Part shown: positions 6,988 through 33,541 of the stretch, piece after piece
Layout: each line of letters begins with the position of its first letter
Numbering within the stretch: the stretch's first letter is position 1
IMG/VR virus record: IMGVR_UViG_3300020057_000067
Span: 1-41,250 of that record
Strand: one strand, 5' to 3'
Source: a virus
Lineage: Duplodnaviria; Caudoviricetes
DNA: 41,250 bases
Notes under the pieces: generated by a model
What the model saw: the letters and a program-made list of their open reading frames with translations, nothing else
What the model was told of the DNA's origin: nothing
Databases searched by the model: none
Translations under genes and position numbers: made by a program

Positions 6988-7142
6988 GGCTGTTCCCGCC
7001 TGTCCAGGTTTCCGCCTGCGCCCGTTGCGGGCGCGTCCTGCGCGAGCGCAGGCGGAAGCCCTGCCCATCCTGCGGCGACACACGCCGCGATCTCGCCCGC
7101 CATGCCAGCGAGTCCATCGGCATCAAGGACCGCGCCAGCTAA
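6984..7142 (+). CDS. Small CxxC...CxxC zinc-ribbon protein (52 aa)
   Basis: GTGA overlap with the previous stop; MRLFPPVQVSACARCGRVLRERRRKPCPSCGDTRRDLARHASESIGIKDRAS. Confidence 0.55.
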   Translation: MRLFPPVQVSACARCGRVLRERRRKPCPSCGDTRRDLARHASESIGIKDRAS

Positions 7143-20901: not shown

Positions 20902-20937
20902 GCCCCGCTTCGTCCTTCGGGACGGGGCGGGGCTTTT
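20902..20937 (+). terminator. Intrinsic terminator ending the structural operon
   Basis: 14-bp GC stem with a cUUCGg tetraloop, followed by TTTT. Confidence 0.85.
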
Positions 20938-21007
20938 CGCTGTCTTGCGGCGGAAGGTCATCTGTTCACGCCCCATTGGGTCGCCGTGGGCAGGGGCTTT
21001 TCTGTTT

Positions 21008-21054
21008 CCACTACATGTTGTGGTGAAGTCGGTCGGGTGTACTACATATAGTGG
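21008..21054. promoter_or_regulatory. Tandem NrdR-box-like palindromes
   Basis: CCACTACATGTTGTGG (21008-21023) and GTACTACATATAGTGG (21039-21054), 31 bp apart start to start; they resemble the NrdR consensus acaCwAtATaTwGtg. Confidence 0.7.
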
Positions 21055-21055
21055 C

Positions 21056-21084
21056 TTGCCAAGTGTTGTAACGAGCGCTAGGGT
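21056..21084 (+). promoter_or_regulatory. Sigma70-type early promoter
   Basis: TTGCCA-17 bp-TAGGGT; ATG 9 nt downstream with no RBS (near-leaderless). Confidence 0.65.
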
Positions 21085-21093
21085 ACGTTGCAC

Positions 21094-21303
21094 ATGAAAC
21101 GGACACGGACACCCGATTGGCGCGAACAGCGCGAACAGCGCGGCCTGACACTGTCGGAGGTAGCGCGACGCGCCGGCCTCAACAAGGGTGACCTGTCGCG
21201 CATCGAGACCAAGCGCCTGGTGCCCACGGCCGACGAGGCTCGCGCCATCCTCCGGGCATTGGGCGATGACCGCGCTCCGGTCAAGGTCGAGACGACGGCA
21301 TGA
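21094..21303 (+). CDS. Cro/XRE-family HTH protein
   Basis: REQRGLTLSEVARRAGLNKGDLSRIET. Confidence 0.9.
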   Translation: MKRTRTPDWREQREQRGLTLSEVARRAGLNKGDLSRIETKRLVPTADEARAILRALGDDRAPVKVETTA

Positions 21304-21923
21304 CCATCCAACAGATGCCGACCGAACGTCCGCATGAGAGCGTTGTAGTCCCTGGTCGACACAAGGACATCGAGGCCGATATCTTCCGTGAGAGCGAAGC
21401 TCTTCCTGGCCTCGATGTCCTTATCTCCCGCGTCCTGCGACTCAGCGAGGAAGAGGGCCTGACGCTGGCGCTGGCTGCGGTCCGCGTCTACCTCGCCGCG
21501 ACGCTCGACGACGACGCACGGGACACCCTCGCTGTCCGCGGGCTTGCGTCGATGGCAGGCGATATCGCGGGACGCTTCAACCGGCTACCCGACGAGTCGG
21601 CCGGCAAGGACGATCGGGCCGCGTTCCTCGGTCGCTTCCAGCTCAACACCCGCCACTCACCGGCTGCGCTGGCTGACGTGATGCAACGGGTCCGCCTGGT
21701 GGGTCACGACGGCCTGGTCAGGCCGCTCATCGACTTCTCGATGGATGACGTGAGGTCATTCCGGTCGCGCAGCGATGCCCAGGTCGAGGGGTGGCAGCGC
21801 CGTGTGAAGTTGATGGCCGAGTACGAGGCCGCGCTGACGAAGCACAAGGCCGCTACCGGGCGTGACCTACCGAAGGTGGTACTGGAGCGCATCAGGAAGG
21901 AAGCGCAGAAGGCATGGTCATGA
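21300..21923 (+). CDS. Hypothetical protein, candidate Tas partner; its N-terminus encodes guide units 1-2
   Basis: ATGA-coupled at both ends; helical; no recognised motif. Confidence 0.7.
   Translation: MTIQQMPTERPHESVVVPGRHKDIEADIFRESEALPGLDVLISRVLRLSEEEGLTLALAAVRVYLAATLDDDARDTLAVRGLASMAGDIAGRFNRLPDESAGKDDRAAFLGRFQLNTRHSPAALADVMQRVRLVGHDGLVRPLIDFSMDDVRSFRSRSDAQVEGWQRRVKLMAEYEAALTKHKAATGRDLPKVVLERIRKEAQKAWS
21321..21410 (+). ncRNA. TIGR-like guide units 1 and 2
   Basis: ACCGA-ACGTCCGCA-TGAGAGCGT-TGTAGTCCC-TGGT (21321-21356) and GCCGA-TATCTTCCG-TGAGAGCGA-AGCTCTTCC-TGGC (21375-21410). Unit 2 is closed by a perfect 15-bp stem. Confidence 0.75.
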
Positions 21924-22870
21924 CCGGCGCCGCTGACATCGTCGTGAGCGAAGCGCGTCTTGGCGCCGAACCACAGCTTGAGAGCGAGCTTCCGCCTGGC
22001 GCCACTACGCGCTACATCGATGCGAGCACCGAGCTACTCGGCCAGCTCGCATCGATGTGGATGGACTTCCAACAGATGCGCAAGGCGGCCGCTCAGCGTG
22101 GCCTCACCGACAAGGACGTGGCGGTACTGCTCAAGGTCGAGACGCACTTCGGCGATCAGCTCAAGAAGGCGCTACGCCAGCACGTCCTGTGGGATGGCTT
22201 CCTTTCGGAACTGTCAGGACTAGGCGGTGTCCATACAGCGCGCCTCATCGCCCGTATCGGTGACCCGCGTCGGTTCCCCGGCCAGCAATGCACGATGGGA
22301 CATACGTTCGTTCCGACAAATAGATTGGGCAGTTGCCCGTTTCAAGCTGTGGACGGCGAGCATTGTCCCGGCATCGTGCAGGAGCCACGTCGGGGGACCG
22401 GCACGCGGTCCGTGTGGCACTACCTCGGCCTCCATGTCGTCAACGGTCGCAGCCCGCGCAAGCAGAAGGGGCAGCAGGCCGACTGGGACCCGCTGGGGCG
22501 CACCGCCGTCCTGCAGCCCGACGGCATCGCCGACGCCATCGTGCGCAACCGCGTGCCGCGCTACCGCGACATCTACGACGACAGCAAGGCGCGCTTGATA
22601 AGGGAGCGCGGGGCCGACAGCCGGAGTGAGGTCGACGCCCTGCCTGGCCCCGACGCTCCAGACCACACAAGGGCGGAGGCCGAGTCGCCGTATGAGATCG
22701 AGCCTACGCATGGCCTCCGCCCATTCGAGTCTGACCGTATCGCCCGCAAGATCGCTGCCAAGGCGTTCGTGGGCGACCTCCTGCAGGAGTGGAAGCGCAG
22801 GGCCGATACGCCCGATGTGAGCGATTTCGAGCCTGGCCCCGCTTCCGCTCCTGCCGAGGCAGCAGCATGA
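21920..22870 (+). CDS. IS110/Nop-domain RNA-binding protein without nuclease domain (TasA-like)
   Basis: LWDGFLSELSGLGGVHTARLIARIGDPRRF, SVWHYLGLH, PRKQKGQQADWD, YRDIYDDSKARL and ARKIAAKAFVGDLLQEW resemble the IS110 C-terminal/Nop fold. No RuvC DEDD or HNH motif. Associated with dual-spacer repeat units. Confidence 0.75.
   Translation: MTGAADIVVSEARLGAEPQLESELPPGATTRYIDASTELLGQLASMWMDFQQMRKAAAQRGLTDKDVAVLLKVETHFGDQLKKALRQHVLWDGFLSELSGLGGVHTARLIARIGDPRRFPGQQCTMGHTFVPTNRLGSCPFQAVDGEHCPGIVQEPRRGTGTRSVWHYLGLHVVNGRSPRKQKGQQADWDPLGRTAVLQPDGIADAIVRNRVPRYRDIYDDSKARLIRERGADSRSEVDALPGPDAPDHTRAEAESPYEIEPTHGLRPFESDRIARKIAAKAFVGDLLQEWKRRADTPDVSDFEPGPASAPAEAAA
21929..22000 (+). ncRNA. TIGR-like guide units 3 and 4 (tandem, 36-nt period)
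   Basis: GCCGC-TGACATCGT-CGTGAGCGA-AGCGCGTCT-TGGC then GCCGA-ACCACAGCT-TGAGAGCGA-GCTTCCGCC-TGGC. Confidence 0.75.
22613..22714 (+). ncRNA. TIGR-like guide units 5 and 6
   Basis: GCCGA-CAGCCGGAG-TGAGGTCGA-CGCCCTGCC-TGGC (22613-22648) and GCCGA-GTCGCCGTA-TGAGATCGA-GCCTACGCA-TGGC (22679-22714), each with its own closing stem. Confidence 0.75.
22802..22837 (+). ncRNA. TIGR-like guide unit 7
   Basis: GCCGA-TACGCCCGA-TGTGAGCGA-TTTCGAGCC-TGGC; closing stem GGAAGCG..GGGCC with GGCCCCGCTTCC. Confidence 0.75.
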
Positions 22871-26962: not shown

Positions 26963-27741
26963 CCGACCGCCCGTACTCACGCATCTATCACGAGCTGGCC
27001 GAAGACTACCCAGAGGTCTACGACGGCCCGCTGCTGGCTGATTACACCCGCTTGCTCGTGGCGGCTGACCAGGCGTACCCGACCCGGGCCAGATGGGCCG
27101 GCTACACCACGAGGAAGGCCATCACGAGGCTGGAACAGATCGGCCTTGCGACTCTCGACGGTGCCCGGTACACCCTTCGCGGAATCGATAAGGAGCGGGC
27201 AGAGAGAAGTGCCAAGGCAAGCCGAGCGGCACGCTCTCGCCATGCTAGTAGCACTGCTACTAGCAGTGCTACTAGCAGTGCTACTAGCAGTCCCCGTAGC
27301 ACTGCTACGACAGTTGCACGTCAACTGCCTAGACGAGACGAGACGAGACAAGACGAGACGAGACGAGACAACGGGCGCGCGACCGATGAGGATGCCGTCG
27401 ATGACTACTTCCGGCTCACCGGGAGGGCACCCAAAGCCACCGTCATGGCGTGGCTCGATCGTCTCGTCACAGACCACGGCGACGACGCCCTCCGCTCCGC
27501 GATGGCCGGGGCGTGGCAGGAGGACCCCAACGTCACCGACTTCCTGGGCCGCGTCGAAGCTCGCTGCGTCTCGGCGTCCCGGCAGAGCGCCAGGGCATCG
27601 AAGGAGCGCGCCGCCAGTTCGGAGCTGGAGCACCAACGCCGGGAGCTGGTGCTCATGGAGTCCATGCCCGAAGAGCAGCGCACCGCGAACATGCAGCGCC
27701 TCGGCTCGATGCTCGCCGACAGCGGGCTGCTGGCCAAGTGA
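26959..27741 (+). CDS. Putative replication initiator
   Basis: N-terminal domain, then a low-complexity linker built from DNA repeats (SSAT repeats, RRDET), then a helical C-terminal domain; lambda O-like layout. Confidence 0.7.
   Translation: MTDRPYSRIYHELAEDYPEVYDGPLLADYTRLLVAADQAYPTRARWAGYTTRKAITRLEQIGLATLDGARYTLRGIDKERAERSAKASRAARSRHASSTATSSATSSATSSPRSTATTVARQLPRRDETRQDETRRDNGRATDEDAVDDYFRLTGRAPKATVMAWLDRLVTDHGDDALRSAMAGAWQEDPNVTDFLGRVEARCVSASRQSARASKERAASSELEHQRRELVLMESMPEEQRTANMQRLGSMLADSGLLAK
27243..27370. repeat. Iteron-like repeats (putative replication origin)
   Basis: TGCTAGTAGCAC then (TGCTACTAGCAG)x3 at 27255-27290; eight AGACG/AGACA pentamers at 27331-27370. Confidence 0.75.
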
Positions 27742-28295
27742 GAGTCCTCATCGCCTGCGAGTTCAGCGGCGTCGTGCGCGATGCGTTCCGCGCTCGTGGG
27801 CACGTTGCTCTGAGTGTCGATCTTCTGCCGACCGAACAGCCGGGGCCGCACATCGAAGGCGACGTGCTCAGGTTCATCGATGACGGGTGGGACCTGATGA
27901 TCGCCCATCCTCCCTGCACCGACATCGCCGTCAGCGGCGCCCGTTGGTTCCCCGCGAAGCGTGCGGACGGACGCCAGGGGCGAGCACTGGCATTCGTGCA
28001 GTCTCTGCTCGATGCGCCTATCCCGCGTATCGCGCTGGAGAACCCGGTAAGCATCATCAGCAGCGCGATACGCAAGCCAGACCAGATCATCCAACCGTGG
28101 CAGTTCGGCCACGGTGAGACGAAGGCAACGTGTCTCTGGCTCAAGGGTCTGCCTCCGCTGGTGCCCACGGATATCGTGGTTGGCAGGGAGGCCCGAGTAC
28201 ACCGGATGGCGCCCGGTCCTGACCGATGGCGCGAGCGCAGCCGCACCCTGCCCGGTATCGCCGCAGCGATGGCAGAGCAATGGGGGTTGCTGTGA
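27738..28295 (+). CDS. Short DNA cytosine-C5 methyltransferase-like protein
   Basis: GTG start; VLIACEFSG, WDLMIAHPPCT, ALENPV and KATCLWLKGLP. Confidence 0.8.
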   Translation: MRVLIACEFSGVVRDAFRARGHVALSVDLLPTEQPGPHIEGDVLRFIDDGWDLMIAHPPCTDIAVSGARWFPAKRADGRQGRALAFVQSLLDAPIPRIALENPVSIISSAIRKPDQIIQPWQFGHGETKATCLWLKGLPPLVPTDIVVGREARVHRMAPGPDRWRERSRTLPGIAAAMAEQWGLL

Positions 28296-28597
28296 GCGTC
28301 GGAGAGATGCGACAGACGGTGCTGCTCCGGGACAAGCGCTGCGTGGCCGCGCTGGTGGACCCGGCCGCCGGAGTGTGCTTCGACGAATGGGGCCACGAGT
28401 GCAGCCCGTGGGACATGAGCCGACTCGAAGCCGACTACGTCCGTCACGGCGCCATCGGAGCTCGCCACGTCCTGCCCGAGGACCACATCGCCCTTTGTGC
28501 CGGACACCATCGTGGGACAGGTCCACAGGCGGGTCGAATCTGGGCCACGTCGCATCGTCGTGAGCTGCGGGACCGACTCGCCGGGGTGCGACGATGA
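28292..28597 (+). CDS. Degenerate HNH-like protein
   Basis: RQTVLLRDKRCV...C...LEADYV...IALCAGHH. Confidence 0.45.
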   Translation: MSVGEMRQTVLLRDKRCVAALVDPAAGVCFDEWGHECSPWDMSRLEADYVRHGAIGARHVLPEDHIALCAGHHRGTGPQAGRIWATSHRRELRDRLAGVRR

Positions 28598-31221
28598 TCG
28601 TCCACGGCGACTGCGTCGAGGTCATGGCGGGCATGGAGCCTGACAGCATCGACGCCATCGTGACGGACCCGCCGTACGGGTTGGAGTTCATGGGCAAGGA
28701 ATGGGACCGGCTGGACGGTGCAGGCTTCCACGCGCCGAAGGACGAGGGCCGGACGTTTACCAACGACAGCGGCCACATGTACGACAACCTCAAGGCGCTT
28801 CCGCGCTTCGGCCATGCCGCTCATATGCAGCAATGGCACCAACGCTGGGCCACCGAAGCCCTGCGCGTAGCCAAGCCCGGCGCCTACCTGCTCGCGTTCG
28901 GTGGCACCAGGACGGTCCATCGCCTCACCGTGGCGCTGGAGGACGCCGGCTGGATCATCAGGGACATGCTCGTGTGGGCGTACGCGTGCCTGTCCGACGA
29001 TACGGAAGTGCTCACGTCTGATGGGTGGGTACGGTACAATAGCGCCAGTGAAGGACAACTCGCAGCAGCGTTCGACCCGACCACCGGAGCCATCCGGTGG
29101 GAGCCCATCGAGCACGTCCACCGATACCACCACGAAGGCGACATGGTGGAAGTCGGCCCGTCGCTGGTCACGCTCAACCACCGGGTCGTCCTAGATGCCG
29201 CGGATCGTGTACCACTTCCCGGTGACGCGGACCTGCGTGGCCTGTGGGGCCGAGTTCCCGACATGGGACAGGTACCAGGCGACACGAGCGAAGTCGTGCT
29301 CGACCGTGTGCCGGTCGGCTCTGCTGTCGCAGGGGCGAACGGGGAAACTCAAGCCGATGGCCGACCGCAAGGGCCGGCTCATCCGCTGCGCGGTCTGCGA
29401 GACGGAAGTCTGGAAGCCGGACGCATGGCTGCGATCGGTCGCCGCGCCGACATGCTCCCGGTCGTGCAACGGCAAGCTGCGGGCGGCGGCGCTGGTGGCG
29501 GCTCCACGTCCCGAGTGGACCCCGGAGCGCCGCGAGGCTGGCCGGGTGCGCATGACCGGCCCGAACAATCCCGCCTGGAAGGGCGGCGTCACCGTGTTCA
29601 AGAAGCATGGGAACTACTCGGGCGTCCGGTACGTGCGCTCGCCGGAGTGGGCGCGTCCGATGGCACGCGGGGATGGCTACGTGATGGAGCACCGGCTGGT
29701 GATGGCATCGGCCTGCGGCTTCCTGATGACGCGCACCGAGGTCGTGAATCACGAGAACCACGTCCCGTCCGACAATCGACTGGACAACCTGACCATGTGG
29801 CCCGACAACCGGACGCACAAGCTCTACGAGTGGGGGAAGTGCCCGCTGGGGACAGCGAACCGGACACGGTACGCACCGTCCCGTATGTCGGAACCGTCTG
29901 GTGCATCACCGTCCCCAGCGGGGCCTTCGTAGCCCGTCGCAACGGCGTCGTGTTCGTCACCGGCAACAGCGGCTTTCCGAAGTCCAAGAGCAGCCTCAAA
30001 CCAGCCCACGAGCCGATAGTCCTTGCGAGGAAGCCGGGACCGTTGCAGCCGTTGCGCATCGACGAGTGCCGGATCCCCGTGAGCGATGACGACAGGCTCA
30101 ACGACGCCGTATACGTCCGCTCCGGCAAGAACAACAGCGCAGTCTACGGCGCCGATAGCCGCGAAGCAGGACGCTGGCTGATGGCAACCGTTGGCGGTCG
30201 CTGGCCTAGCAATCTAGTCCTCACAGACCCCGTCTTCGATGGCGGCTGGGATGGCGTAGTGGGCGGGGGGAACGCTGGTGGCGGCTACGGCGTGCGAGGT
30301 GGCGGTGGAGATGGGGCGTGGAACCCTACCGACCGCGACAAGTCGCCGGGCCAAACGATAAGGGGCGGCGGCGAGGCTGTCGGCTACGGCGACACCGGCA
30401 CCTACTCACGTTTCTTTCTTGTGCCGAAGGCGTCACGGCGAGACAGGGAACCGGACGTGCCGGGTGCGCTGGAAACCACACACTGCACCTGTGAAACTGT
30501 TAAACTAGGGGCATGGGAAAACGAGGGCCTAAGCCAGCCCGACCAGACGGCTTCCACGTCACAGCCAAGGGCTATCTCCGGGGCAACGTCGAGGGACGGC
30601 TTCGACTCGCTCATGTCGTCGAATGGGAGCGGCACTTCGGACCCGTCCCACCCGGACAGCATGTCCACCACATCAACGGCGACAAACAAGACAACCGGAT
30701 CGAGAACCTCCAGGCCGTCGATACCGTCACCCACAAACGGCTCCACTCTGGCTCGAAGCTCATCGATGGCGAGTGGTGGAAACAGTGCTCCATCTGTAGC
30801 CTCTTCCGACCGCTTGACCTCGAATGGTGGTACTTCTCAGCCGAAGGCTGGCCCCTCTACGGACGATGCCGCCCCTGCCATATCAGGCGCGTCGTCGAGT
30901 CCAAGCGTCTGCGCAAGCTGCGGGCTGCCTCCGCTTCGTGACCAGGAAGGCGGTGATGCTGGTCGGCGTGGACGTGTGAACGTCCACCCGACCCAAGCCG
31001 TGAAGCCCACCGCGCTAATGCGCCATCTCATCCGCCTCGTGACACCGCAGGACGGCACCATCCTCGACCCATTTCTCGGCAGCGGCACTACCGCCAAGGC
31101 CGCGACGCTGGAAGGCATCAAGTGGGTCGGCATCGAACGCGAGGCCGAGTACATCGCCATCGCGGAGCAACGTCTTGTGGGCCTGGTGCCCGAACCAGTG
31201 CAGATGGGGCTGACGGCATGA
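28594..31221 (+). CDS. DNA N6-adenine/N4-cytosine methyltransferase with an intein and a second insertion
   Basis: HGDC, IVTDPPY, LKPAHEPI, HPT..VKP and LDPFLGSGTT motifs, interrupted by two large insertions. Confidence 0.9.
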   Translation: MIVHGDCVEVMAGMEPDSIDAIVTDPPYGLEFMGKEWDRLDGAGFHAPKDEGRTFTNDSGHMYDNLKALPRFGHAAHMQQWHQRWATEALRVAKPGAYLLAFGGTRTVHRLTVALEDAGWIIRDMLVWAYACLSDDTEVLTSDGWVRYNSASEGQLAAAFDPTTGAIRWEPIEHVHRYHHEGDMVEVGPSLVTLNHRVVLDAADRVPLPGDADLRGLWGRVPDMGQVPGDTSEVVLDRVPVGSAVAGANGETQADGRPQGPAHPLRGLRDGSLEAGRMAAIGRRADMLPVVQRQAAGGGAGGGSTSRVDPGAPRGWPGAHDRPEQSRLEGRRHRVQEAWELLGRPVRALAGVGASDGTRGWLRDGAPAGDGIGLRLPDDAHRGRESREPRPVRQSTGQPDHVARQPDAQALRVGEVPAGDSEPDTVRTVPYVGTVWCITVPSGAFVARRNGVVFVTGNSGFPKSKSSLKPAHEPIVLARKPGPLQPLRIDECRIPVSDDDRLNDAVYVRSGKNNSAVYGADSREAGRWLMATVGGRWPSNLVLTDPVFDGGWDGVVGGGNAGGGYGVRGGGGDGAWNPTDRDKSPGQTIRGGGEAVGYGDTGTYSRFFLVPKASRRDREPDVPGALETTHCTCETVKLGAWENEGLSQPDQTASTSQPRAISGATSRDGFDSLMSSNGSGTSDPSHPDSMSTTSTATNKTTGSRTSRPSIPSPTNGSTLARSSSMASGGNSAPSVASSDRLTSNGGTSQPKAGPSTDDAAPAISGASSSPSVCASCGLPPLRDQEGGDAGRRGRVNVHPTQAVKPTALMRHLIRLVTPQDGTILDPFLGSGTTAKAATLEGIKWVGIEREAEYIAIAEQRLVGLVPEPVQMGLTA
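28987..29967 (+). mobile_element. Intein (327 aa) in the methyltransferase
   Basis: WAYA|CLSDDTEVLTSDGW (block A), VTLNHRV (block B), YVGTVWCITVPSGAFVARRNGVVFVTGN|SGFPKS (blocks F/G, +1 Ser). Confidence 0.92.
29195..29932 (+). CDS. HNH homing endonuclease in the +1 frame inside the intein
   Basis: CVAC/CSTVC and CAVC/CSRSC zinc fingers; GPNNPAWKGG; GYVMEHRLVM...EVVNHENHVPSDNRLDNL. Confidence 0.85.
   Translation: MPRIVYHFPVTRTCVACGAEFPTWDRYQATRAKSCSTVCRSALLSQGRTGKLKPMADRKGRLIRCAVCETEVWKPDAWLRSVAAPTCSRSCNGKLRAAALVAAPRPEWTPERREAGRVRMTGPNNPAWKGGVTVFKKHGNYSGVRYVRSPEWARPMARGDGYVMEHRLVMASACGFLMTRTEVVNHENHVPSDNRLDNLTMWPDNRTHKLYEWGKCPLGTANRTRYAPSRMSEPSGASPSPAGPS
30513..30941 (+). CDS. Second HNH endonuclease in the -1 frame inside the methyltransferase
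   Basis: KGYLR...LAHVVEWERHFGPVPPGQHVHHINGDKQDNRIENL...HKRLH; C-terminal CSIC...CRPC. Confidence 0.88.
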   Translation: MGKRGPKPARPDGFHVTAKGYLRGNVEGRLRLAHVVEWERHFGPVPPGQHVHHINGDKQDNRIENLQAVDTVTHKRLHSGSKLIDGEWWKQCSICSLFRPLDLEWWYFSAEGWPLYGRCRPCHIRRVVESKRLRKLRAASAS

Positions 31222-31243
31222 TCGCGATGCAGCGGAGGGCGAG

Positions 31244-31933
31244 ATGACCCCCTACTACTCCGACGCCTACGTGACGCTGTACCACGGCGACGGGCGGTCC
31301 GTTCGGGATATCGAGGGACTTGTAGTGACGGACCCGCCCTATAACATCGGCTTCGATTATGGCCGTGGCGGGTACTTGGACCAACTGTCTACTGGCGAAT
31401 ACGCGGAGCTGATAGCAGCGACATGTCGCCCGCCCAGCGTGGTCATCCACTACGCCGAGGCGATGTTTCCGCTGGCTGATGCTATCGGGCAAGCACCCGA
31501 GCGGTGTGTGGCGTGGGTCTATAACGGGCATTTGACGTCGCGTCAGTGGCGCTTGGTGTCGTGGTTCGGCTGCTCGCCCGACCTCGCCCTAGTCAAGCAG
31601 CCATACAAGAACCCGACCGATAAGCGGGTGGCCGCGCTCATCGAGTCTGGCTCTGACGGTCGCCCGGTCTATGACTGGTGGCACTTCGACCAAGTCAAGA
31701 ACGTGTCCGCAGACAAGACAGCTCACCCCTGCCCGGTGCCTCGTCCGCTGGTGCGGCGCATCCTGGAAGTTACGCCGGCCGCGCTCGTCCTCGACCCGTT
31801 CACAGGCAGCGGCACGACGCTTCGAGCGGCTAAGGACATCGGACGCGAGGCCATCGGGTACGAGACCGATGAGCGATGGGTGTCTATCGCGGCTCGTGTT
31901 CTCGGCCAAGAAGTGCTGGGGCTGACGGCATGA
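31244..31933 (+). CDS. DNA N6/N4 methyltransferase
   Basis: VTDPPYN, HPCPVP and LDPFTGSGTT. Confidence 0.9.
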   Translation: MTPYYSDAYVTLYHGDGRSVRDIEGLVVTDPPYNIGFDYGRGGYLDQLSTGEYAELIAATCRPPSVVIHYAEAMFPLADAIGQAPERCVAWVYNGHLTSRQWRLVSWFGCSPDLALVKQPYKNPTDKRVAALIESGSDGRPVYDWWHFDQVKNVSADKTAHPCPVPRPLVRRILEVTPAALVLDPFTGSGTTLRAAKDIGREAIGYETDERWVSIAARVLGQEVLGLTA

Positions 31934-32721
31934 CCGAGCACACCCACGCCTACACCCTGAGCTGGACCGAGGCAAGGCTGGTCGAAGCGCTCAAGAGTCG
32001 CTACGGCGAGAACGAGTGGGCGATGATGACTCAAGTCCGCCAGGGAGCTGGCTGGAACAAGCGGACATTTGACGCCATCGCCATCGGGCTGTGGGGCAGC
32101 CGCGGCCATCCGGTCCATGGCTTCGAGTGCAAGACATCGCGGTCCGACTGGAGTCGCGAGCTGGCCAAGCCCGAGAAGGCTGACCCGTTGGCCGCGTTCT
32201 GTACGTACTGGTGGGTCGTAGCCCCGAAGAGCATCGTTGACCCGCTGTCGCTGCCTCTCGGGTGGGGTCTGCTGGAGGCATGGGACAACGGCACCGTTCA
32301 CACCATCGCTGAGGCCGAGAGGCGCGACCCGGAGCCATTCACCCGCGGCTTTGTCGCCCAAGTGCTCAAACGGGCACTCGCCGCCGACCCGAACTTACGG
32401 GCGGTTCGTGAGGCCACGAAGAAGGGCTATGACCGTGGCATCTCCGAGATGGATAGCCGCCTCGAGACCGAGCGCGCATCGGCCGAGCGCGCGCGGCAGC
32501 GTGTTCGTGACATCGAGGCCGCAGCGGGGCTGCGACTCGACGGTGCCGGTCATGAGACGCTGCGCAAGTACGGCGACACCATCCGCCGAGTGGTAGAGGC
32601 CGAGGGTCGGGGCTTCGATACGCCGTTCTCGTGGCTCGAAAATGCCCGCAGACAGGCGCAGAAGTTCATCGATCGCACCGCGGATATCGCCGTGGTGACC
32701 CACCGAGATGACGCGGCATGA
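31930..32721 (+). CDS. MmcB-like PD-(D/E)XK protein
   Basis: RTFDAIAIGLWGSRG..HGFECKTSRSDWSREL..PEKA...WWVVAP. Confidence 0.7.
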   Translation: MTEHTHAYTLSWTEARLVEALKSRYGENEWAMMTQVRQGAGWNKRTFDAIAIGLWGSRGHPVHGFECKTSRSDWSRELAKPEKADPLAAFCTYWWVVAPKSIVDPLSLPLGWGLLEAWDNGTVHTIAEAERRDPEPFTRGFVAQVLKRALAADPNLRAVREATKKGYDRGISEMDSRLETERASAERARQRVRDIEAAAGLRLDGAGHETLRKYGDTIRRVVEAEGRGFDTPFSWLENARRQAQKFIDRTADIAVVTHRDDAA

Positions 32722-32900
32722 TCGAGCACATCCACGCCTTCACCCTCCCTCCCCGGACCGCGAGTGTCGAACTCGGTGACTTCCGCCGACGCTGCGCCGT
32801 CGATGGCTGCGTGGCGCGAGAGCACGTCCATCAGTGGCACGCTGGCGAATGGCCGGACCACGGGACCATCGAGCTGTGCGACTGCGGGGAGACGCGATGA
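32718..32900 (+). CDS. Small His/Cys-rich protein
   Basis: Coupled start; EHIHAF and EHVHQW repeated; CDCGE. Confidence 0.5.
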   Translation: MIEHIHAFTLPPRTASVELGDFRRRCAVDGCVAREHVHQWHAGEWPDHGTIELCDCGETR

Positions 32901-33541
32901 CCCCCTACTACTCCGACGCCTACGTGACGCTGTACCACGGCGACTGTCGTGAGCTGCTGCCGAGCATCGAGGCTGACGTGGTGGTCACTGACCCGCCGTA
33001 TGGGTATGCACATGCGAGCAACCGGGCAGATAGCGCATGGCGCGACGAGCCTATCGCTGGAGACGCTGACCTCGCGGCTCGCGATGACATGCTCGCGATG
33101 TGGAGCGGTCCTGCCATCGTGTTCGGACACTGCAAGACCGCCGCGCCCGCCGGGGCGAACGCCGTACTCGTGTGGGACAAAGGGCTAGCCTCTGGCATGG
33201 GCGACCTGGCTATGCCGTGGAAGCCCAACTGGGAGCACATCTACATCATCGGGCGGGGCTTTTCGGGCAGGCGTGACTCCGGTGTCATCACGGGGCATAC
33301 CGTCGTGACTTGGACGTCTAAGGGGCGCAGTCATCCAAACATGAAGCCCGTTTCCCTGATGGGCGACCTCATCGGGAAGTGCCCACAAGGCACCATCCTC
33401 GACCCCTTCGCAGGCTCCGGCTCCACCCTCGTGGCAGCCAAGTCGCTGAACCGCAAGGCCATCGGCATCGAGATCGAGGAACGCTACTGCGAAGTCGCAG
33501 CCACCCGCCTCCGTCAAGAAGTGCTGGGGCTGTCGGCATGA
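32897..33541 (+). CDS. DNA N6/N4 methyltransferase
   Basis: LYHGDC, VTDPPYG, HPNMKP and LDPFAGSGST. Confidence 0.92.
   Translation: MTPYYSDAYVTLYHGDCRELLPSIEADVVVTDPPYGYAHASNRADSAWRDEPIAGDADLAARDDMLAMWSGPAIVFGHCKTAAPAGANAVLVWDKGLASGMGDLAMPWKPNWEHIYIIGRGFSGRRDSGVITGHTVVTWTSKGRSHPNMKPVSLMGDLIGKCPQGTILDPFAGSGSTLVAAKSLNRKAIGIEIEERYCEVAATRLRQEVLGLSA

What the first reader, a model, noticed from the sequence alone, without database searches (positions are those of the whole stretch)
21363..22846. Isolated guide units have unit-specific closing stems (structure kept, sequence not)
Seen: unit 2 is closed by AAGGACATCGAGGCC/GGCCTCGATGTCCTT (15 bp, perfect) and unit 6 by GGGCGGAGGCC/GGCCTCCGCCC (11 bp). 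Unit 5 uses GGAGCG-CGGGGCC/GGCCCCG-A-CGCTCC and unit 7 GGAAGCG-CA-GGGCC/GGCCC-CGCTTCC. Unit 1 has a compensatory change, CGACC/GGTCG instead of GGCC/GGCC. Tandem units 3-4 share a palindromic GGCGCC edge. Inference: this covariation argues for a functional RNA resembling a box C/D snoRNA terminal stem, and the locus mixes stem-loop and tandem-repeat architectures.
Basis: seen in the sequence. Interest (0 to 1): 0.75.

Follow-up and report, generated by a model that had tools for sequence, protein, structure and literature searches.

The report
Phage TIGR guides in swappable slots
Seven hairpin units inside two neighbouring phage genes are predicted guide RNAs of a known, likely non-cutting RNA-guided DNA-binding system (stem-loop TIGR-TasA); in relatives each hairpin stays put while its guide letters are overwritten, which may help explain how such systems get new guides.

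Summary
The stems are real and beyond chance (summed perfect stems 57 bp; 23.9±5.0, max 48, in 5,000 synonymous recodings). They close seven dual-spacer units (CGA-N9-UG-N4-CGA-N9-UG) lying in frame inside a nuclease-free Nop-domain gene (best structural match TIGR-TasR 9MTY) and the gene before it. This is a stem-loop TIGR-TasA system; divergent stems, intragenic units and overlapping stems are already described (Faure 2025; Xu 2026 preprint). An unannotated 170-210 aa gene precedes tas in 31 of 32 loci. Neither point turned up in five literature searches, but this scan noted both before on other DNA. No target was found. Added here: about 79 records of cultured mycobacteriophages carry the cassette, so guide turnover can be tested.

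The parts
21319..21358 (+). Unit 1 (core 21323-21354; second box C reads CGT), 5-bp stem, in codons 8-19 of the partner ORF; weakest unit
   Evidence: fold z +0.46; CM E 0.39
21363..21422 (+). Unit 2 (core 21377-21408), 15-bp perfect stem, codons 26-37 of the partner ORF
   Evidence: pair 21367/21418 changed on both sides and spacers changed in strain contigs of runs X2 and X3
21925..21968 (+). Unit 3 (core 21931-21962; variant boxes CGC and CG), shares its 3' edge with unit 4; Tas codons 6-17
   Evidence: CG is a box D variant used by TIGRFinder; not found by the CM
21961..22004 (+). Unit 4 (core 21967-21998), 36 nt after unit 3; Tas codons 18-29
22603..22659 (+). Unit 5 (core 22615-22646), bulged 13-bp stem whose 5' arm encodes the conserved ERG residues; Tas codons 234-245
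   Evidence: spacer B changed in strain contig X2
22671..22722 (+). Unit 6 (core 22681-22712), 11-bp stem whose 3' arm encodes the near-invariant GLRP residues; Tas codons 256-267
   Evidence: both spacers changed (5 of 9, 6 of 9) with stem unchanged in X2
22791..22846 (+). Unit 7 (core 22804-22835), bulged 12-bp stem; Tas codons 297-308
   Evidence: both spacers and two loop bases changed in strain contig X6
21914..22870 (+). tasA: 318-aa Nop-domain protein without N-terminal nuclease, with an invariant C-H-C-C cluster (C126, H130, C141, C151; predicted metal site)
   Evidence: phmmer to 9MTY E 2.3e-8; Foldseek 9MTY E 1.3e-7, TasH ranks 3-10, IS110 weaker; 36 residues before the first helix
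21300..21923 (+). Partner ORF, 207 aa, overlapping the tas start; unannotated helical family
   Evidence: 31 of 32 homologous loci; 946 clusters at 50% identity; no Pfam, PHROG or PDB assignment
21088..21303 (+). Cro-like HTH gene overlapping the partner start; probably the same transcript, found near tas in only two other distinct contigs
   Evidence: Pfam HTH_31 E 9.7e-12; tblastn hits in L012 and L001/L057
20902..20933 (+). Terminator-like hairpin ending the structural genes, upstream of the HTH-partner-tas block
   Evidence: pattern match only

Best explanation
The seven units are predicted stem-loop tigRNA guides of a phage TIGR-TasA system, written in frame inside the tasA gene and an unnamed partner gene; each stem is a fixed slot that relatives keep while the spacers inside it differ, and the guides likely direct a non-cutting TasA dimer to 18-bp sites in foreign DNA. 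Shown here: the units, their stems, their position in low-confidence protein segments, the Tas fold without nuclease, slot-wise spacer change, and the partner gene. Inferred from published systems: processing of the mRNA into single hairpins, pairing of spacer A and B with opposite strands, and repression by steric block. Inferred from the pattern alone: the interior of a slot (both spacers, often the loop) is most likely exchanged as a block by recombination between co-infecting kin, with the stems and coding flanks as homology arms; where brand-new spacers first come from is not shown. Odds: tigRNA-TasA system 0.92; works by non-cutting DNA binding 0.8; targets mainly other mobile elements or host rather than itself 0.7; block exchange rather than point hypermutation 0.6.
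For: Protein: 9MTY is the only significant PDB sequence hit and Tas structures fill Foldseek ranks 1-10; 36 residues precede the coiled coil (median 36, max 123 in 50 aligned homologues). RNA: boxes, 9-nt spacers and 9-nt loop match TIGRFinder's stem-loop definition, CGA and CG variants included; stems beat codon-preserving controls; 22 aligned units give 95.5% paired cells and 9 of 11 pairs with two-sided changes. Units recur at tas in homologous loci (146 units after dropping 5 duplicate loci) and, in 8 related viral records read in full, only at tas. All 121 intragenic units in relatives and all 7 here use one codon phase, the only phase in which none holds a stop. Slot turnover: 45 same-slot comparisons split into 21 with 0-3 and 24 with 10-15 differences of 18, none with 4-9; loop changed in 12 of 14 replaced and 0 of 4 kept slots of L013/L014/L019; in three strain contigs of this phage 31 of 78 spacer positions differ against 12 of 208 others; six cultured phages with 96-99% identical genes show 4-6 alleles at each of five slots, shared in different combinations. 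TasA-type repression was shown for another TasA (Xu 2026).
Against: No expression or processing data for this locus. No target: predicted sites match held DNA no better than control geometries. U1 and U3 are weak. The CUU stem-base motif follows only 2 of 7 units. The 22 rows of the covariation test were picked with a stem filter and are not all one slot, so it leans towards pairing. Slot comparisons are not independent (17 locus pairs, about four diverged lineages). Strain contigs have depth 2-4. One-sided change exists (Pelly slot 1: A 8 of 9, B 2 of 9; U5 in X2 lists only spacer B changes), so the block is not always whole. No core was found moved to a different slot (3 near pairs at 5 differences among more than 10,000, background level).
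Confidence: 0.8

Rival explanations
1. Same system, but new spacers are written into a slot from target DNA by a dedicated process, with the partner protein as the adaptation or loading factor.
For: Both spacers usually change together and to unrelated sequence; the partner precedes tas in 31 of 32 loci and in distant cultured phages; no adaptation machinery is known.
Against: The partner model is all-helical apart from a short hairpin, has one invariant acidic residue and matches no nuclease, integrase or polymerase fold; no source DNA for any spacer pair was found; shared slot alleles among kin fit plain recombination.
Confidence: 0.2
2. Same system, but spacers change by point mutation under strong selection to follow escaping targets, with no block exchange.
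For: Some slots differ by 1-3 of 18 bases; the codons lie in unconstrained loops.
Against: No comparison falls at 4-9 of 18 among 45 and none at 5-6 among 65 in cultured phages; loop bases change with replaced slots only.
Confidence: 0.15
3. The guides regulate the phage's own genes (self-repression, lysogeny timing).
For: The cassette follows an HTH gene at the head of an early block; TasA can repress transcription.
Against: No self site with fewer than 3 mismatches in the window, for 34 of 34 units tested against their own records, or within 3 mismatches for 10 Omega units; rapid spacer turnover is hard to square with fixed self targets. Some records are incomplete.
Confidence: 0.07
4. An IS110-type transposase with bridge-like RNA, or a box C/D-like RNA-modifying guide system.
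For: Weak Pfam Transposase_20 hit (E 0.015, under cut-off), PHROG 4285 'transposase', IS110 structures at Foldseek ranks 11-14.
Against: No room for an N-terminal RuvC/DEDD domain; Tas structures rank higher; units are single 32-nt cores; no Rfam match in the window.
Confidence: 0.04
5. The hairpins are by-products of GC-rich coding sequence or ordinary mRNA structure.
For: U1, U3, U4, U7 perfect runs alone arise in 6-18% of recodings; three other perfect 12-13 bp stems lie elsewhere in the window.
Against: Sum of stems never reached in 5,000 recodings; fixed boxes and spacing; recurrence only at tas; compensatory changes.
Confidence: 0.02

Closest known systems
Stem-loop TIGR-TasA with intragenic tigRNAs (BlTasA, MbTasA; survey of 2,559 stem-loop arrays; Xu et al., bioRxiv 10.64898/2026.09.09.750476; whole main text read)
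   Same: Nop-only Tas; box C CGA and box D UG/CG; 9-nt spacers and loop; stems conserved only near the boxes and divergent within one array; units inside the coding sequence in disordered segments; overlapping stems; no Y/H loop.
   Different: All seven units are intragenic, two in a second gene; the internal pair lies between the last two helices, not in the wedge loop as in BlTasA; CUU follows only 2 of 7 stems; that text mentions neither a partner gene nor slot-wise spacer replacement and calls spacer acquisition unknown.
PlTasA stem-loop system (Faure et al. 2025, PMC12045711, passages and sections 4, 10, 44 read; Guan et al., bioRxiv 10.64898/2026.08.11.744272, first of five parts read)
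   Same: Variable palindromes in place of edge repeats, snoRNA-like units, nuclease-free TasA; a conserved loop, which Faure et al. call a possible intermediate between the two array types.
   Different: PlTasA has 13 units in three sub-arrays; here units are scattered through two ORFs and the boxes read CGA rather than CCA.
tasParB-tasA operons (Faure et al. 2025, section 44)
   Same: A second gene operonised with tasA.
   Different: Those carry dual-repeat arrays and a ParB-like protein; the partner here gave no ParB or other family hit in 30 members and no fold match, which does not exclude a remote link.
Dual-repeat TIGR (TaTasR 9MTY, SpTasH)
   Same: Nop fold; U3-U4 have the 36-nt period and 9-nt edge of a dual-repeat array.
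   Different: No nuclease, no Y/H processing loop, only two tandem units, edge is a palindrome.

Membership tests
Stem-loop TIGR-TasA | Tas-type Nop domain with coiled coil | tested here: met
Stem-loop TIGR-TasA | No N-terminal RuvC or HNH domain | tested here: met
   36 residues before the first helix, all unit-coded and low-confidence
Stem-loop TIGR-TasA | [quoted passage not shown] | tested here: met
   7 units, 9-nt spacers; U1 and U3 have variant boxes
Stem-loop TIGR-TasA | Variable palindromic flanks that can pair (5 bp or more) | tested here: met
   5-15 bp in 7 of 7; beyond codon-preserving controls in sum
Stem-loop TIGR-TasA | No Y/H processing loop after the last helix | tested here: met
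   0 Y and 0 H in residues 298-318; no structural alignment to SpTasH positions was made
Stem-loop TIGR-TasA | CUU at the stem base (frequent, not universal) | tested here: inconclusive
   2 of 7 units within 14 nt after box D
Stem-loop TIGR-TasA | Units are transcribed, processed and bound by Tas | not testable with these tools
   needs pull-down and small-RNA sequencing
Stem-loop TIGR-TasA | Guide-directed binding of an 18-bp DNA site | tested here: inconclusive
   no natural site above control level in held DNA; binding itself untested
Dual-repeat TIGR | Regular array of alternating edge and loop repeats, 36-nt period, and Y/H dyad | tested here: not met
   only U3-U4 are tandem; no Y/H
IS110 recombinase with bridge RNA | N-terminal DEDD RuvC domain | tested here: not met
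Box C/D snoRNA (archaeal/eukaryotic) | Match to a curated snoRNA family | tested here: inconclusive
   no Rfam hit at gathering score in the window; the boxes are tigRNA-type; K-turn and fibrillarin/L7 partners not searched
TasParB | Partner with a ParB-like domain | tested here: inconclusive
   no Pfam/PHROG/PDB hit for 30 members or the model

The most novel reading that the evidence does not exclude
This is a two-protein TIGR subtype in which each stem is an address and new guides are written into the slot by replacement rather than added at an array end, with the unnamed partner protein doing or licensing the writing. That would be the missing TIGR adaptation step, and it could be watched in cultured mycobacteriophages that carry the same cassette.
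Probability: 0.2. Interest if true: 0.85.

Novelty: new variant of a known kind. Interest (0 to 1): 0.5.

Why it matters
The stems themselves are a described feature of stem-loop TIGR systems. What matters is what comparison shows: both founding papers call spacer acquisition and natural targets open questions, and here slots keep their stems while spacers are overwritten, even inside protein-coding sequence, next to a conserved gene of no known family. The same partner-tas cassette, with five intergenic slots and different alleles, sits in about 79 records of cultured Mycobacterium smegmatis phages and in phages Omega and Peregrin, so turnover, targets and the partner's role can be tested in a native host. 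If replacement is programmable it would be a new way of writing guides; if it is plain recombination it still explains how guide genes embedded in ORFs stay current.

Tried and rejected
Target searches, all negative: 7 window units against the window; 140 spacer pairs against 320.7 kb of loci (8 hits within 2 mismatches, controls 9, 5, 9); 141 pairs against 449 kb of 11 viral records (13 hits, controls 11, 9, 13); 10 Omega units against Omega; 23 and 25 mycobacteriophage pairs against Pinto, Watermelon, Barriga (first 50 kb each) and Omega (spacer length varies there, so registers may be off). Whole public collections and host genomes were not searched for predicted sites, so targets outside the held DNA stay open. 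No RNA holder listed for the locus. No relative in the prokaryote genome collection and none by single-protein scan of viral contigs. Partner: no homologue by word search, no usable Atlas hit, no fold match above Z 5.2; related-locus scans with its alignments could not be run. No Rfam match. Movement of a core between slots: not seen. The one promoter-like site overlapping U2 is a bare pattern match. Supplements of PMC12045711: four files searched, no hit for this clade's motif or for mycobacteriophage names, but the table is cut and figures S12-S14 could not be seen; supplements of the preprints are closed; these could already list this locus, the partner or the mycobacteriophage loci (the paper cites a mycobacteriophage review for phage hosts).

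Full report
Setting. The window is the whole held record, a tailed-phage contig with terminase, portal and capsid genes. After a terminator-like hairpin at 20902-20933 come three overlapping + strand ORFs: an HTH gene (21088-21303), a 207-aa ORF (21300-21923) and a 318-aa ORF (21914-22870).

Observation. Seven units of the form box C (CGA; CGC or CGT once each), 9 nt, UG (CG once), 4 nt, box C, 9 nt, UG start at 21323, 21377, 21931, 21967, 22615, 22681 and 22804 (U3 was placed by eye and does not match the pattern). With protein and cores fixed and codons redrawn from the phage's own usage, the summed run of 57 bp was never reached in 5,000 tries (mean 23.9, sd 5.0, max 48); singly, U2, U6 and U5 are rare (2, 29, 79 of 5,000) and U1, U7, U4, U3 are not (299-880). 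Folding agrees: U2, U5, U6, U7 have z of -3.0 to -4.5, U3+U4 -1.7, U1 +0.5.

What it is. The 318-aa protein has one significant PDB sequence hit, TIGR-TasR 9MTY (E 2.3e-8); its model (pLDDT 84) matches TasR and TasH at Foldseek ranks 1-10, ahead of IS110. Only 36 residues precede the coiled coil and no Y or H follows the last helix: a nuclease-free TasA of the stem-loop kind. All seven units are intragenic and fall in low-confidence segments of the two models. Faure et al. 2025 (PMC12045711; passages, sections 4, 10, 44) describe stem-loop arrays with variable palindromic flanks and liken them to snoRNAs. Xu et al. 2026 (bioRxiv 10.64898/2026.09.09.750476; whole main text) report stems that diverge within one array, in-frame intragenic units, CGA and CG box variants, overlapping stems and repression by TasA. 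So the finding as written is a described property of a known family.

Relatives. 130 protein homologues were found and 55 loci fetched (L010 is the window's own contig). After dropping 5 duplicate loci, a box-plus-stem filter gave 146 units; all 121 inside the tas frame share the window's codon phase, the only phase in which none holds a stop (97 and 27 would in the other two). Tandem units with shared palindromic edges recur (five at 38-nt period in L028; pairs in L012, L030, L038), so U3-U4 is not unique. On 22 aligned units, 95.5% of cells pair and 9 of 11 pairs change on both sides, above all 500 shuffles and all slid controls; rows were chosen with a stem filter and are not all one slot, so this leans towards pairing. 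Cleaner cases: U6's 3' arm is the GLRP coding motif, and its synonymous changes are matched in the 5' arm; strain contigs in two runs change both 21367 and 21418 of the U2 stem. Against: 21356 changes without a listed partner change in U1.

Slots. In diverged pairs flanks are 85-99% and third codon positions 64-92% identical, spacers 22-47%. Of 45 same-slot comparisons from 17 locus pairs, 21 differ at 0-3 of 18 spacer bases and 24 at 10-15, none at 4-9; unrelated units peak at 13-14; among the 8 diverged pairs 24 of 28 are replaced. Loop bases changed in 12 of 14 replaced and 0 of 4 kept slots of one trio. The comparisons are not independent. This phage's own slots behave alike in three contigs of depth 2-4 from other runs: 31 of 78 spacer positions differ, 12 of 208 others, covering U2, U5 (only spacer B listed), U6 and U7. 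No core was seen in a different slot.

Partner. The 207-aa ORF has tblastn relatives upstream of tas in 22 distinct other loci; a profile, partly built from these loci, finds one in 31 of 32 loci with 450 nt or more upstream. The family holds 946 clusters at 50% identity, has no Pfam, PHROG or PDB assignment and is fused to Tas in one database protein, P0143, which may be an assembly error. The top viral fold hits (E 0.002-0.07) include a phage Omega protein and an unnamed 172-aa protein; genes of those lengths lie directly before distant Tas homologues in Omega and Rhodococcus phage Peregrin and match the partner profile. Omega carries 11 intergenic stem-loop units with CCA/CG boxes.

Cultured test bed. 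79 of 83 and 79 of 91 matching phage records hold the partner and Tas of Mycobacterium phage Pinto at 90% and 95% identity or more (records, not distinct phages; genus Fromanvirus where given, 'cluster A1' is my recollection). In six fetched, the two genes are 96-99% identical in DNA, and five stem slots between them carry 4, 6, 6, 5 and 6 alleles (28 of 30 slots parsed; the two unparsed count as distinct); of 65 comparisons 7 differ at 0-4 and 58 at 7-18, inflated where spacer length shifts the register. Alleles are shared in different combinations, and one swap is one-sided. These are isolates, so assembly error does not explain the pattern; they are distant from the window's protein (profile E about 1e-19 for Tas, 1e-12 for the partner), so transfer of conclusions is an inference.

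How it likely works. The operon mRNA, or internal transcripts, would be cut into single hairpins; a TasA dimer would bind one and pair spacer A and B with opposite strands of an 18-bp site, blocking transcription or replication without cutting (established for other members; untested here). Targets are probably foreign, since no self site has fewer than 3 mismatches and spacers turn over fast, but no target was found in any held DNA. Stems serve as fixed slots, partly locked by the protein motifs they encode; block exchange between kin is the simplest source of the turnover (0.6), templated writing with the partner (0.2) and hypermutation (0.15) are the rivals.

Novelty. Five literature searches returned no paper on slot-wise replacement or this partner; listings only, apart from the papers named, one passage of 10.64898/2026.09.22.753630 and the first part of Guan et al.; unseen supplements may hold either. 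This scan's earlier notes report both on other DNA, read after I had found them; they are not independent proof. Verdict: observation confirmed, known family, new variant by its partner gene and all-intragenic slots; interest 0.5, mainly because cultured phages make guide turnover testable.

Noticed in passing
L082-L087 (Mycobacterium phages Pinto, Watermelon, Buttons, Pelly, Barriga, Rufus), between the 153-aa gene and the 236-aa gene: Five-slot stem-loop TIGR arrays with different alleles per phage; the tas gene is annotated as transposase, DNA-binding or hypothetical and is followed closely by a Cas4-family exonuclease gene. Slot 2 has a conserved hairpin in its loop.
   Followed up: partly
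L077:1526-3860 (phage Omega gp22-gp21) and L078:1310-3260 (phage Peregrin gp186-gp187): Partner-tas cassettes in cultured phages; 11 units in Omega; hairpin units visible by eye in Peregrin but not caught by my filter.
   Followed up: partly
window 22289-22366 (Tas residues 126-151): C-x3-H...C-x9-C cluster invariant in 50 of 50 aligned homologues, a likely zinc site inserted in the Nop domain; some relatives carry further units inside this insertion.
   Followed up: partly
L056 and L058, 10001-10038 (-): One identical unit with perfect boxes in two viral records with no match to this Tas profile; both records are incomplete.
   Followed up: no
window 7010-7057, 27261-27307, 28025-28073: Other perfect 12-13 bp inverted repeats with 23-24 nt loops, without TIGR boxes; the second lies in a run of short tandem repeats typical of a replication-protein region.
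   Followed up: no
window 27450-33541: At least four DNA methyltransferase ORFs; 31244 and 32834 regions share near-identical 5' sequence (matches at 31256 and 32909).
   Followed up: no
L017, L018, L025, L043: An 81-nt in-frame unit is present in one, two, three and two copies in otherwise near-identical tas genes, with spacer A and B variants reassorted among copies: slot number changes by tandem duplication.
   Followed up: partly
window 20945-21263: One minor contig in run X1 joins 20945 to 21263, skipping the promoter region and most of the HTH gene; the short side is only 30 letters.
   Followed up: no
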